Part shown: piece after piece, positions 6,001-9,000 of the stretch
Layout: the number at the start of each line of letters is the position of its first letter
How positions within the stretch are numbered: the stretch's first letter is position 1
Position numbers: made by a program
From: a virus
Lineage: Duplodnaviria > Heunggongvirae > Uroviricota > Caudoviricetes
Reading direction: 5' to 3' (one strand)
Virus record (IMG/VR): IMGVR_UViG_2537562192_000011
Length of the DNA: 9,540 bases

Positions 6001-9000
6001 GCACCGTCCCGCCACGCCCTTAATCATTACCGTGCCGCCGTACTGGTCGCGGTAAATATCACCGCGCGTAAATTTAGGGTGAGTGTTGCCACTGGCAGTT
6101 AAGCCAGAATATTTAAATTTCATTATTTTTATTCTCCGGTGTGCTGTTCGTTATATCTGTCGTGCAATTGGTCTATTTCTTGTAGTTCCATTATTACAGG
6201 CTCAAGAAGCGTTATTAATGCCGTGACAATTCTTGATTTTTGTTTGTCGCGTTCATTGTCGCCAAGTGTTTCAAGCCATATGCGCAATATTTCCATCATA
6301 TTTTCACTGTGAGAAAGTGCAAGAAATACGCGATCTGTTGTTTCGTGGTAAATATCACGCATATTAATCCCCGTCCGTCGCTTTTCTTAAAATAACCTCT
6401 GTCACGAAATCAGCATAGTTAGCGGCAATATCAAGAATATTTAGCCCTGTATCTCTGTGCTCATCAGTGCAAAGAAAGAAAAAAGCCACCCGCATAATTT
6501 CAGATATTGACGAAAGCGCATCAGCCGCATCATCAGAAACGCCGGAAAATTCTTGTTTCAGGGAATTAAAACGATCATCACGCATAACCCCCCCCATTTT
6601 CACAATCAGCAATCAGGATAGCTTTGGCCTCATTCAGCGCCATATCAGCACTAAGTTGCATAACCGCCAGCGAATGAGGAACGAAAGCCCCTGCATATTC
6701 TGTTTCACTGGTGGCGTGCTTATGCGCCCTGTCAGCAATAACAGAAATATCAATAAGCGCGTGCATCAGCGTAGTGAGCGCGGCGGCTGCTGCGTCCGGT
6801 GTGGTTTTATTGTGCATAGGTTTCTCCCTGGCGAATACGGGCTGCAAATACAGCAACACAACCGGACGGGCAACGGCTACGCGCTTCGCGTTCCGTCCAG
6901 GCGGTTACGTGGATGATTTGAGATTCTCCGGCACTCAGTGCCAGAAAACGCCACACAAAGGCCGTTTGTGTGTGTGCTAGTCGTGGGGTATGATTTACGG
7001 CAACCATAAATTTACCTCTCTATAGTGTTTGTGGTTAGACGCCCTGCATGTGTTCCAGCACTGTGGGGCGTTGTTTTTTGGTGCAAGTCACCTTGAAATC
7101 TAGGTTACTTTTAGGTGACTTGCACTTCAAGTCTTTTTTTATTTTTTTTTCTCCGTATACTGAACACCACCTAACAGTAAGGAGAACAGAGATGCCAACA
7201 GGTACAACCAACAACAAGTCACAACAAAAAACTGCTAGAGTACCTCTAGACGTTTTAAGCGAAATGAATTTGGTAAAAGAAGAAAACGAAACAGACGCAC
7301 AATTTATCGTTACTGCCATGCGCGGCGAAATCAAACGCCGCCAGCGTCGCAAGGCCAAAGAATCAGAATAATCACTATCAGCGCCGTGGTGTGAGGTACT
7401 CCGGCGCATTGCTTTACAGGAACACACAATGACCAACAAAGAATCAACCAATACACCATCGCAAAAAACGAACAGAGAGCACGAAAATATGGCGCTCGAG
7501 CATGAATCAGAAAGATTCGCACCATGCGCTTTTGTCCTTGATGAGTTTCTAAAAAAATATTCACGTTCTGAACGGATGAAAATGGCAGCACAATACGGCC
7601 CCAACAAGCAAGATAATTGCCCACCAGCCTGATCGCGGTTATCATGCCCGGGCTTATGATTGTTGACACATACGGCGCAGCGGGTTAATTGTTCAGAAAG
7701 GTGGCTCCATTTCGGGGCCGCTTTTTTTATGTTCATCATTTGCCCTATATATGTTAAGCGGTCGTTCCGCGCGCTTCTTGTTCGCGTTCTTTCATCCATG
7801 CGATTACGTCTTCCTCATACCATCCGCGACGGCGCAAACCGACACGAAAACCCTGCGGGAATTCTCCGGCGTTGATCATGCTTTGCAGCGTGCTGTCTGC
7901 CTTAATGTGGATAAGTTTTTTTACTTCCTGGCGAAAGATGACTTTTTTGATTGCTTCCATCGTGATTTACCTCATTAATCCGGTGTATTCCGGTGTATTC
8001 CGGTGAGAAATACGGTAAATCATCGGATGCAGGGAAAAACAGTACTCACCGTTTTTAAACGGTATACACCATTTTTTATATTGATGATTTGAAAGGGATT
8101 TATAAAAAAAGCGGCATTTCTGCCGCTTTCAGGATTGTTACCGCCATTTTTTTGGCCTGCCTCCGGTCTTCATGGATGCCGGACGTACAACCTTATCAAT
8201 ACTTACAGCCAGATTTCTGGAAGCCCCACGGGATACCAGGAAATCTACTACCTGTTTTTTTGATGGGGCCGTCGTTCTGTCCTCCGGATCGTAGGTTGAC
8301 CAAAATTCATGCTGAACCATCAGGGCCAGTTGCAGCCCGTCGCAATTGCATCTGAAATTTGTTTGCATCTTAACAGTTTCATTTTTCAAGGCCTCGTCGT
8401 TAAATGTGATGCAATTATACGACGGTTTTAAATGGTTTTCGTAGTTTTTACTGGTTTTCTGTACAGCTAAACGGCTCGGATACCCCTTTTACCACTGGCG
8501 AGGGTTACGCCCGTCGCCGCAGCCTCGACAAATTCGCCCCACCAGCGCATAAGCACGATGCGTTTTTCTATGTAGTTGCTCCGGTTGTATGCCCGTCTGA
8601 CTTCGTTGGTGTCGACGTGGGCAAGTGCGGCCTCTATTACGTCCGGCTCAAAGCCTTCTTCGTTCGCTGCTGTGCTGAATATGGCGCGTAATCCATGAGA
8701 CACCAGCACGCCAGCGAATCCCATGCGTCGTAATGCTGCGTTAGCGGTCTGGCTGTTCATCGGCTGCTGTGGGTCTTTCAGACTCGGGAAAACATAATCG
8801 CGGTGGTGGCTGATTGGTTTCATAGCCTCCAGCACTGCCATAGCCTGGTCACAAAGCGGGATAACGTGGTCGCGGCGCATCTTCATGCGTCCGGCGGGTA
8901 TGGTCCAGCGTTGCGCTTCCATGTCGATTTCTTCCCAGCGTGCCGACGATGCTTCAACGGGACGGGTTACGGTCAGTAACTGCCATTCAATCAGTAATCT

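What the first reader, a model, noticed from the sequence alone, without database searches (positions are those of the whole stretch)
6860..7191. Divergent control region: perfect 13-bp inverted repeat, nested repeat, long T-tracts and an RHH-like gene
The region between the leftward replication operon and the rightward small-gene unit contains a perfect 13-bp inverted repeat with a 19-bp spacer, an overlapping GACTTG/CAAGTC repeat, and T7/T9 tracts just upstream of a -10-like TATACT. The adjacent gene encodes an RHH-like protein. This is the layout expected for the element's repression/induction switch. On the plus strand the hairpin plus U-run could alternatively act as a terminator or attenuator. 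The T9 tract could also vary in length and retune the promoter.
Basis: partly seen in the sequence, partly recalled or inferred. Interest (0 to 1): 0.6.

Follow-up and report, generated by a model that had tools for sequence, protein, structure and literature searches.

The report
Repressor operators at a satellite's switch
The perfect inverted repeat is two of three copies of an 11-bp binding site that most likely lets a small ribbon-helix-helix protein (YlcI/YnfO family) shut off the replication operon of a phage satellite, next to a previously undescribed antisense RNA that covers the first gene of that operon.

Summary

The region is not all intergenic. 6807-7007 (-) encodes an Icd-like protein. 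7002-7078 (+) is a conserved, structured antisense sRNA over its ribosome site and start codon.

In 55 related control regions from Enterobacterales, each arm is one 11-bp unit, GTG-N5-CAC. There are three units at fixed offsets from ylcI. O1 and O2 flank the -10 of a strongly conserved leftward sigma-70 promoter. O3 overlaps the start of the ylcI promoter.

N5 falls into about 10 types. Each type goes with one type of YlcI N-terminus. It does not track Icd, the sRNA, AlpA or the replicase. O1 is inverted in 33 regions and direct in 18, so a hairpin or terminator is not the conserved feature.

Best reading: YlcI represses the icd-replication operon and itself. No binding experiment exists. In this lineage O3 carries a different N5, which is unexplained.

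The parts
7081..7091 (.). O1: 11-bp unit GTGCAAGTCAC (the reverse complement of O2). This is the left arm of the 13-bp repeat (7081-7093). It lies at about +5 to +15 of the inferred leftward promoter.
7115..7125 (.). O2: 11-bp unit GTGACTTGCAC. This is the right arm of the 13-bp repeat (7113-7125). It fills the -35/-10 spacer of the leftward promoter and starts 77 nt before the ylcI ATG, as in the other loci.
7160..7170 (.). O3: third unit, cTGAACACCAC. It overlaps the last 2 nt of the ylcI -10 and the expected start site. Its core AACAC differs from the ACTTG of O1 and O2 in this lineage.
7125..7130 (-). Inferred -35 of the leftward (icd operon) promoter: TTGAAG on the minus strand. It shares one base with O2.
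   Evidence: TTGAAG, TTGACG, TTGAGG or TTGACA in 48 of 51 distinct regions
7102..7107 (-). Inferred -10 of the leftward promoter: TAACCT on the minus strand, 17-nt spacer. It lies in the 'loop' of the repeat. The start site would be near 7095.
   Evidence: TAnnnT at spacer 17 or 18 in 54 of 55 distinct regions, and at most 3 at any other offset
7134..7150 (.). T7-A-T9 tract. On the minus strand it is an A-tract at about -38 to -54 of the leftward promoter (UP-element-like). On the plus strand it covers the -35 and spacer of the ylcI promoter. Its length is conserved.
7156..7161 (+). -10 of the ylcI promoter, TATACT, starting 36 nt before the ATG.
   Evidence: TATACT at this offset in 40 of 53 sequences, and a TAnnnT variant there in 9 more
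7192..7371 (+). ylcI: 59-aa YlcI/YnfO-family protein with a predicted ribbon-helix-helix fold. It is the proposed repressor. The Shine-Dalgarno AAGGAG is at 7179-7184.
7002..7078 (+). Candidate cis-antisense sRNA of about 77 nt. A 5' hairpin carries the anti-Shine-Dalgarno and anti-AUG sequence. A terminator hairpin (7037-7071) with a U-run follows. Its -10, TATGAT, is at 6989-6994.
6807..7007 (-). Icd-like cell-division-inhibitor gene (66 aa), the first gene of the leftward operon. Its Shine-Dalgarno GAGAGG is at 7020-7015. It overlaps the next gene (6578-6817) by 11 nt.
7117..7133 (+). Nested GACTTG/CAAGTC repeat followed by the T-run (terminator-like by pattern). It is not conserved in other operator types.
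7429..7632 (+). 67-aa ORF of unknown function, co-transcribed with ylcI. A homologue follows a different ribbon-helix-helix gene in O157:H7. It is absent after ylcI in L004 and L005.

Best explanation
The window is a ~10-kb P4-like/PICI-like phage satellite integrated at tRNA-Pro in E. coli.

**What the repeat is.** The 13-bp inverted repeat is two (O1, O2) of three copies of an 11-bp operator unit, GTG-N5-CAC.

**Where the units sit.**
- O2 lies in the spacer of a leftward sigma-70 promoter: -35 TTGAAG at 7130-7125, -10 TAACCT at 7107-7102, with an A-tract UP-like element at 7134-7150.
- O1 lies just downstream of that promoter's start (about 7095).
- O3 overlaps the -10 and start of the divergent ylcI promoter (TATACT, 7156-7161).

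**Proposed mechanism.**
- Dimers of the ribbon-helix-helix protein YlcI (7192-7371) bind the units.
- The variable N-terminal strand (residues 12-14, beside invariant R16) reads the variable N5 core. This step is inferred.
- Binding represses the icd-replication operon and YlcI's own gene.

**Second layer of control.** A ~77-nt plus-strand sRNA (7002-7078) is fully complementary to the leftward mRNA leader, the Shine-Dalgarno site and the AUG of icd. It should block translation of icd and, through the coupled and overlapping genes, expression downstream.

**Shown here:**
- the sites, their fixed positions and their concerted variation;
- the pairing of unit type with YlcI type;
- conservation of the promoters;
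- the ribbon-helix-helix fold prediction;
- covariation in the sRNA structure.

**Inferred:** actual binding, the sign of regulation, the start sites, and how a helper phage lifts repression.
For: **Three units at fixed offsets.**
- They start at -32, -77 and -111/-112 (or -99 to -102) from the ylcI ATG in 51 of 53 sequences (50 loci plus the window) from many genera of Enterobacterales.
- Four further loci show the same layout.

**N5 is concerted within a locus and differs between loci.**
- The 13 N5 strings seen at O2, which merge to about 10 types, each pair with a single YlcI N-terminal type, with no conflict.
- Residues 12-14, next to invariant R16, differ between types and hardly vary within a type.

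**The pairing follows ylcI, not its neighbours.**
- 12 locus pairs share at least 85% sRNA identity but differ in operator and YlcI type. 74 pairs share N5 with under 70% sRNA identity.
- Icd is 91-97% identical in L005 and L009 compared with L012/L013, which carry different operator types.
- The identical AlpA-like protein WP_000953271 occurs with three YlcI operator types and with a different RHH module.
- The same operators occur with a primase and with a RepA helicase.

**Promoter geometry.** TTGnnG abuts O2. TAnnnT lies at spacer 17 or 18 in 54 of 55 distinct regions, against at most 3 at any other offset.

**The slot is modular.** After the same sRNA terminator, other elements carry an unrelated ribbon-helix-helix-like ORF with palindromes of its own.

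**The unit is confined to this region.** It occurs nowhere else in the window.
Against: - There are no binding, footprint or transcript data.
- Operator and gene are physically adjacent, so their co-variation could partly reflect linkage. What argues for selection is the concerted change of three separate sites.
- In this very lineage, O3 (AACAC) does not match O1/O2 (ACTTG).
- The strand was not called by DSSP in the monomer model.
- An 11-bp unit spaced 22-45 bp apart is unusual for ribbon-helix-helix operators.
- The ylcI -35 is poor, so O2 could equally act positively on ylcI.
Confidence: 0.72

Rival explanations
1. The repeat acts as RNA. On the plus strand the hairpin, or the nested GACTTG/CAAGTC stem, plus the U-run is an intrinsic terminator or attenuator. 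It would stop read-through from the sRNA gene, or tune ylcI.
For: - The pattern scan lists 7117-7133 plus TTTTTTTATT as terminator-like.
- The plus-strand RNA of 7076-7155 folds at -23.4 kcal/mol, z -6.0.
- It lies directly after the sRNA terminator.
Against: - The fold energy follows trivially from a perfect repeat.
- In 18 of 51 distinct homologous regions the two units are direct repeats. Their mean energy is -9.5 kcal/mol, against -16.5 for the inverted ones.
- Both orientations occur within one unit type.
- The nested stem uses the variable core of O2 and is absent in other types.
- The 13-bp stem is separated from the T-run by 8 nt.
- The -10 of a conserved leftward promoter sits in the loop.
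- An incidental terminator effect in this particular element is not excluded.
Confidence: 0.08
2. The units are real protein sites, but the binder is not YlcI. Candidates are the AlpA-like regulator (7754-7960), Icd, another operon product, or a helper-phage or host protein.
For: - In E. coli PICIs, AlpA is the known activator of the operon downstream of it (PMC6092414).
- PHROG families 1743 and 6196, which Icd-like proteins hit, are labelled 'transcriptional repressor'.
- No experiment links YlcI to this DNA.
Against: - The identical AlpA-like protein occurs with three YlcI operator types and with a different RHH module.
- Icd is 91-97% identical across different operator types, and under 50% identical in 80 of 118 same-type pairs.
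- A host or helper factor would not explain about 10 element-specific cores.
- ylcI is the only gene always inside the co-varying block.
Confidence: 0.12
3. The repeated units are iterons of the satellite's replication origin, bound by the primase/helicase, as in P4 ori/crr.
For: From my own knowledge, not tested here: P4 ori and crr contain repeated octamers (TGTTCACC). GGTGAACA in the AACAC-type unit is its reverse complement. The units lie at the head of the replication operon.
Against: - Identical units (ACTTG type) accompany a DNA primase family protein in the window and L003, but a RepA-family helicase in L002.
- The units sit at fixed positions relative to promoter hexamers and the ylcI start, not relative to replication genes.
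Confidence: 0.03
4. The T9 tract is a slipped-strand contingency tract that retunes the promoter.
For: It is a long homopolymer between promoter elements. L006b and L007b differ by one T in their tract.
Against: - Eight other E. coli genomes are 100% identical to the window's 7079-7195.
- L002 and L003 keep T7AT9. L052 has T8AT8, the same length.
- The O2-to-O3 distance is 45 bp in essentially all loci.
Confidence: 0.02

Closest known systems
Phage P22 immI region (Arc and Mnt ribbon-helix-helix repressors, divergent Pant/Pmnt, sar antisense RNA). Comparison from my own knowledge.
   Same: - Small ribbon-helix-helix repressor encoded divergently from the operon it controls.
- Operators overlap back-to-back promoters.
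- A short cis-antisense RNA with its own promoter covers the translation start of a gene in the repressed operon.
   Different: - No sequence relationship.
- One repressor gene rather than two.
- Three separated 11-bp units rather than one compact operator.
- The controlled operon starts with icd and runs into replication genes of a satellite.
- There are at least 10 exchangeable specificity types.
Phage P1/P7 immI (c4 antisense RNA - icd - ant) and P4 CI RNA immunity. Comparison from my own knowledge, plus the Rfam test.
   Same: - An Icd homologue (NF033153) is the first gene of an operon under RNA control.
- It holds the same position as the P4 immunity region, ahead of the primase gene.
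   Different: - C4 and CI RNAs are cut from the sense transcript and act on sites in the same transcript. Here the RNA is encoded on the opposite strand with its own -10 and terminator.
- The C4 Rfam family gives no match even at E <= 10.
- The ribbon-helix-helix gene and operator layer have no counterpart in P1 or P4.
- The phage collection holds no DNA or protein match.
Omega repressor of plasmid pSM19035 (PDB 1irq, 2bnw)
   Same: - Non-palindromic repeat units that work in direct or inverted orientation. The 2bnw entry title mentions direct heptad repeats; the inverted arrays are from my own knowledge.
   Different: - Omega heptads are 7 bp and contiguous, in arrays of 7-10.
- Here there are three 11-bp units, 22-45 bp apart, each with palindromic GTG/CAC ends.
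- Sequence identity is 15-17%.
Stl/Rpr master repressors of Gram-positive PICIs (SaPIs)
   Same: The proposed role is the same: a repressor encoded divergently from the excision and replication operon of a phage satellite keeps it silent until a helper phage arrives (PMC6092414).
   Different: - Different fold and size.
[quoted passage not shown]
- No helper-encoded antirepressor is known here.
- The ylcI cassette is optional among related E. coli elements.
SymR antitoxin RNA (Rfam RF01809)
   Same: - A ~77-nt cis-antisense RNA over the ribosome site and start codon of a small, potentially toxic protein gene.
- Two hairpins, the second a terminator.
- A sub-threshold Rfam match at 7002-7075.
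   Different: - 25.9 bits against a gathering score of 61, so it is not a member.
- The target is icd, not symE.
- No Rfam family reaches threshold in the window or in 20 related loci.

Membership tests
YlcI/YnfO family (NCBIfam NF041551) | Score above the curated cut-off for the N-terminal 42-residue model | tested here: met
   61.7 bits against a cut-off of 30, E 4.7e-17, residues 9-50. RefSeq names the identical protein WP_001142000 accordingly.
Ribbon-helix-helix (Arc/MetJ/CopG) superfamily | Strand-helix-helix fold of about 45 residues | tested here: met
   [not shown]
Ribbon-helix-helix (Arc/MetJ/CopG) superfamily | Sequence match to a curated ribbon-helix-helix model | tested here: not met
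   No Pfam family matches at E <= 0.1. No PDB chain matches at a significant E-value with the family profile.
Ribbon-helix-helix (Arc/MetJ/CopG) superfamily | Dimer whose paired N-terminal strands read the DNA major groove | not testable with these tools
   Indirect only. Residues 12-14 beside invariant R16 are type-specific and track the N5 core.
Repressor operator at a sigma-70 promoter | Repeated site overlapping -35/-10/+1 of a promoter, conserved in position | tested here: met
   O2 lies in the spacer and O1 at or after the start of a leftward promoter. That promoter's TAnnnT sits at spacer 17 or 18 in 54 of 55 regions. O3 overlaps the ylcI -10 and start.
Repressor operator at a sigma-70 promoter | Demonstrated protein binding and repression | not testable with these tools
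   Needs EMSA, footprinting and reporter assays.
Rho-independent terminator | G+C-rich stem directly followed by a U-run | tested here: inconclusive
   The pattern is met by the 6-bp nested stem 7117-7133 plus the T-run. The 13-bp stem ends 8 nt before the T-run.
Rho-independent terminator | Stem kept by compensatory change in homologues | tested here: not met
   The units are direct repeats in 18 of 51 regions, with both orientations inside one type.
C4/CI antisense RNA family of P1, P7 and P4 (Rfam) | Match to the covariance model | tested here: not met
   No hit at gathering score, or at E <= 10 on 6700-7500.
SymR (RF01809) | Score at or above the gathering threshold (61 bits) | tested here: not met
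   25.9 bits, E 0.015.
Structured cis-antisense sRNA (generic) | Own promoter, conserved structure with covariation, strand-specific pairing, terminator | tested here: met
   - TAnnnT lies 8 nt before the first paired base in 44 of 45 sequences.
- 17 of 22 pairs have compensatory changes.
- 95-97% of cells pair on the plus strand, against 79-84% on the minus strand.
- MFE is -30.3 kcal/mol, z -5.4.
- A terminator is found at 7050-7071 plus a T-run.
- Expression has not been shown.
Icd-like cell division inhibitor (NF033153) | Score above the curated cut-off | tested here: met
   64.7 bits against a cut-off of 25 for 6807-7007 (-).

The most novel reading that the evidence does not exclude
YlcI/YnfO-family ribbon-helix-helix proteins are the missing master (immunity) repressors of a large class of Gram-negative PICI/P4-like satellites. 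They come in at least 10 interchangeable repressor-operator specificity types. They act together with a family-wide, so far uncatalogued cis-antisense sRNA against icd. Helper phages, or read-through from alpA, induce the satellite by overcoming this two-layer lock.
Probability: 0.35. Interest if true: 0.7.

Novelty: new variant of a known kind. Interest (0 to 1): 0.5.

Why it matters
For Gram-negative phage-inducible islands, the published picture is an activator (AlpA). [quoted passage not shown]

If the reading here is right:
- A protein family with no assigned function gains a role. YlcI/YnfO is in PHROG 949 ('unknown function'), and I found no functional paper on it.
- It would be an operator-specific repressor with a readable recognition code: residues 12-14 paired with a 5-bp core.
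- The multiple specificity types suggest immunity groups among satellites.
- The icd-replication operon would be under double control, by the repressor and by an sRNA.

The claims are directly testable with EMSA and reporter swaps. The kind of device itself, a small repressor with repeated operators at divergent promoters plus an antisense RNA, is classical.

Tried and rejected
- **Rfam.** A gathering-threshold scan of the window and of 20 related loci found nothing. An E-value scan gave only a sub-threshold SymR match and noise.
- **Pfam.** No hit for YlcI, Icd or the 67-aa ORF.
- **PDB sequence search with the YlcI profile.** Nothing significant.
- **Phage collection.** No DNA or protein match, so the module is not in P4 itself or other deposited phages at these thresholds.
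- **Literature.** Searches for YlcI/YnfO, Icd-like, and PICI with repressor or operator found no functional description. One search failed on a short term.
- **Simple promoter scan.** It missed all three promoters because their -35 or -10 fall below its 9-of-12 rule. They were recovered by conservation instead.
- **Extra copies of the unit elsewhere in the window.** None found.
- **Rejected readings.** Conserved hairpin or terminator, iterons, AlpA sites, Icd as the binder, and a phase-variable T-tract. The reasons are under the rival explanations.
- **Technical.** The first attempt at search for related loci with a 9-sequence alignment failed for lack of a conserved stretch.
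Full report
**1. Context**

The window is 100% identical to part of the E. coli 2012EL-2448 chromosome. There it forms a ~10-kb island between tRNA-Pro/yejM and yejO.

Gene order, right to left:
- integrase
- a small ORF
- an AlpA-like helix-turn-helix gene (7754-7960, -)
- two rightward small genes: 7192-7371, YlcI/YnfO family, and 7429-7632, unknown
- a leftward operon: an Icd-like gene (6807-7007), four small ORFs including a DUF4222 protein, a DNA primase family protein (4073-5827), a further small ORF, SSB and a ClpP-capsid fusion

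This is a P4-like/PICI-type phage satellite.

**2. The observation**

- The 13-bp perfect inverted repeat lies at 7081-7093 / 7113-7125, 19 nt apart.
- No shuffle of the window (0 of 60) or of the region (0 of 1000) reaches 13 bp; the maximum is 11.
- The nested GACTTG/CAAGTC pair, the T7-A-T9 tract (7134-7150) and TATACT (7156-7161) are all present.

**3. Mosaic structure**

- Megablast of 6817-7191 hits 815 E. coli records. Only 11 cover at least 80% of the query.
- Most alignments stop at query position 264-269 (window ~7080-7085) or at 193 (~7009).
- The repeat therefore begins at a recombination joint. To its left is an icd/sRNA module found in many elements. To its right is a rarer module made of the repeat, the promoters and ylcI.

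**4. What the repeat is**

I collected related control regions:
- six from E. coli;
- 44 from one genome per species across Enterobacterales, including Cedecea, Citrobacter, Pectobacterium, Dickeya, Yersinia, Xenorhabdus, Hafnia, Morganella and Providencia;
- five contig loci, from three look-ups, for proteins close to the window's.

Each arm is one 11-bp unit, GTG-N5-CAC. There are three units, not two. They start 32, 77 and 111/112 nt (or 99-102 nt) before the ylcI ATG in 51 of 53 sequences. In the window they are:
- O1, 7081-7091
- O2, 7115-7125
- O3, 7160-7170

Within a locus the three units share the same N5. Between loci N5 differs: ACTTG/ACTCC, AAATA, AATCG, TCTTA, AACAC, TGGCC, CTAAC, GACTC, TGCTC, ATACA.

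O1 is inverted relative to O2 in 33 distinct regions and direct in 18. Both orientations occur within one type: AATCG is direct in nine regions and inverted in L044, and ACTTG is inverted in most and direct in L057. A conserved hairpin in RNA or DNA is therefore not the selected feature. A repeated recognition unit is.

**5. Who reads the unit**

- The 13 N5 strings seen at O2, which merge to about 10 types, each map to a single type of YlcI N-terminus, without conflict.
- Residues 12-14, beside invariant R16, differ between types and are nearly fixed within a type. The C-terminal EIKRRQR is invariant, as are the GTG/CAC ends of the unit.
- The pairing is not explained by the left neighbour:
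  - 12 locus pairs have at least 85% identical sRNA but different operators and YlcI;
  - 74 pairs have the same N5 with under 70% sRNA identity;
  - Icd is 91-97% identical between L005 or L009 and L012/L013, which carry different operator types, and under 50% identical in 80 of 118 same-type pairs.
- It is not explained by AlpA. WP_000953271 occurs with types ACTTG, TCTTA and AAATA, and with a different ribbon-helix-helix module.
- It is not explained by the replicase. A primase and a RepA helicase accompany the same ACTTG units.
- ylcI is the only gene always present in the co-varying block. L004 and L005 lack the downstream ORF.
- Caveat: operator and gene are adjacent, so linkage contributes. 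The concerted change of three separate sites still needs a type-specific reader.

**6. Fold of YlcI**

- The family is small: 95 representatives at E <= 0.001 among 1.84 billion proteins.
- It has no solved relative by sequence.
- An AlphaFold2 model from 45 sequences (pLDDT 81) has an extended N-terminus and two helices.

**7. Promoters**

On the minus strand, a hexamer abutting O2 reads TTGAAG, TTGACG, TTGAGG or TTGACA in 48 of 51 distinct regions. A TAnnnT hexamer follows at spacer 17 (43 regions) or 18 (11 regions) of 55. No other offset has more than 3, and the hexamer itself takes 25 different forms. This is the signature of a selected sigma-70 promoter.

| Element | Window position | Note |
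|---|---|---|
| Leftward -35 | 7130-7125 | TTGAAG |
| Leftward -10 | 7107-7102 | TAACCT, in the 'loop' of the repeat |
| Leftward start | about 7095 | inferred |
| O2 | 7115-7125 | fills the spacer |
| O1 | 7081-7091 | about +5 to +15; overlaps the -10/+1 in the short-spaced forms |
| T-tract | 7134-7150 | on this strand an A-tract (65% A on average) at -38 to -54, the position of an UP element (inference) |

On the plus strand:
- TATACT starts 36 nt before the ATG in 40 of 53 sequences, and a TAnnnT variant sits there in 9 more.
- O3 overlaps its last two bases and the expected start.
- Where the T-tract is absent, a TTTACA-like -35 takes its place (L008, L022).

The layout is two back-to-back promoters with operators over both cores. 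This is the classical arrangement for repression of the operon and for autoregulation.

The T-tract has a fixed length:
- O2 to O3 is always 45 bp.
- Eight other genomes are identical to the window's 7079-7195.
- L052 has T8AT8 instead of T7AT9, the same length.

**8. The sRNA**

- Between the icd start and O1 lies a plus-strand unit. Its -10 is TATGAT (6989-6994).
- A 5' hairpin has a loop and stem complementary to the icd Shine-Dalgarno site (GAGAGG, 7020-7015) and AUG (7007-7005).
- A terminator hairpin with a U-run ends near 7078.
- Across 45 sequences, 17 of 22 pairs show compensatory changes.
- Pairing is 95-97% on the plus strand but 79-84% on the minus strand, because of many G-U pairs.
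- TAnnnT lies exactly 8 nt before the first paired base in 44 of 45 sequences.
- No Rfam family reaches threshold. SymR scores 25.9 bits against 61.
- The RNA is complementary to positions of about +18 to +94 of the inferred leftward mRNA.
- By analogy with SymR/symE, sar/ant and c4/icd, it should block icd translation. Because icd overlaps the next gene by 11 nt, it may also reduce downstream expression. This is inference.

**9. The slot is modular**

- After the same sRNA terminator, O157:H7 TW14359 carries an unannotated 57-aa ORF (PYQMRLPEDFRAQLEEAAK...). Two GGTAATTACC palindromes there flank a leftward TTGACA / TATACC pair.
- L002 carries a related ORF with its own palindromes.
- L006 and L007 stack two complete cassettes. 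The second follows a truncated icd.
- Different small ribbon-helix-helix genes with matching repeats thus occupy the same place, which fits the repressor-operator reading.

**10. What remains open**

- In the window lineage, and in Salmonella L053/54, O3 has the core AACAC rather than ACTTG. Other relatives of the same protein type have ACTCC. This could reflect graded affinity, relaxed specificity or a recombination relic.
- How repression is lifted is unknown. No terminator-like site separates alpA from the ylcI cassette on the minus strand, so antisense read-through from alpA is one possibility.

**11. Verdict**

- The idea is refined to three operators, a defined leftward promoter and an added sRNA layer.
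- The terminator and phase-variation alternatives are rejected as conserved functions.
- The device is of a classical kind. It is closest in logic to P22 immI, and closest in gene content to P1 immI and the P4 immunity region.
- It involves a protein family without known function, in satellites for which no repressor has been described (PMC6092414).

Noticed in passing
window 7002-7078 (+), promoter -10 at 6989-6994: A conserved, structured ~77-nt cis-antisense sRNA covers the Shine-Dalgarno site and start codon of the Icd-like gene. It is found across Enterobacterales satellites and in about 800 E. coli genomes. It is not in Rfam 15; the only hit is a sub-threshold SymR match.
   Followed up: yes
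It overlaps the next gene (6578-6817) by 11 nt. PHROG families 1743 and 6196 label such proteins 'transcriptional repressor', while NCBIfam calls them cell division inhibitors.
   Followed up: partly
window 7160-7170: In this lineage the third operator copy has a different 5-bp core (AACAC) from O1 and O2 (ACTTG). AACAC is the core used at all three sites by elements whose YlcI has the LQLSVRLPLDD N-terminus. The same mismatch is conserved in a diverged Salmonella element (L053/54).
   Followed up: partly
L058 (E. coli O157:H7 TW14359) 1755-1985: An unannotated 57-aa ribbon-helix-helix-like ORF lies at 1812-1985 (+). Two GGTAATTACC palindromes sit at the same slot after the sRNA terminator. 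RefSeq instead annotates a 594-nt minus-strand 'Icd-like' pseudogene over it.
   Followed up: partly
L006 1320-1770, L007 1310-1770, L002 1790-2480: Control cassettes are stacked in tandem. A second sRNA, operator set and ylcI follow a 24-codon icd remnant. In L002 the second sRNA is followed by a different ribbon-helix-helix-like gene with its own palindromes (TAATGTGT...ACACATTA, GTGTATATACAC).
   Followed up: partly
window 7429-7632 (+): A 67-aa ORF of unknown function (PHROG 21027) follows ylcI. A homologue (62 aa, shared motif EHESERFAPCAF) follows the unrelated ribbon-helix-helix ORF in O157:H7. It therefore travels with the slot rather than with one repressor family.
   Followed up: no
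window 6952-6972 (-): A terminator-like hairpin (CACACAAACGGCCTTTGTGTG followed by GCGTTTTCTG) lies on the minus strand inside the icd coding sequence. It overlaps the -35 region of the sRNA promoter. It is present in the window, L006 and L007 but not in most other loci.
   Followed up: no
window 7633-7753: The pattern scan finds no terminator-like site between the convergent ylcI cassette and the alpA-like gene. Transcription from alpA could run antisense through ylcI into the icd operon.
   Followed up: no
window 540-2429 (-): A 629-aa ClpP-like prohead protease / major capsid fusion protein is encoded in an island of only ~10 kb. No portal or terminase gene is visible in the window.
   Followed up: no
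L059 (E. coli 042) 1770-1890: A longer (101-aa) YlcI/YnfO protein has units of another kind (GTGAATACCA / TGGTATTCA). The third copy lies upstream of the -10 rather than after it, which is a variant layout.
   Followed up: no
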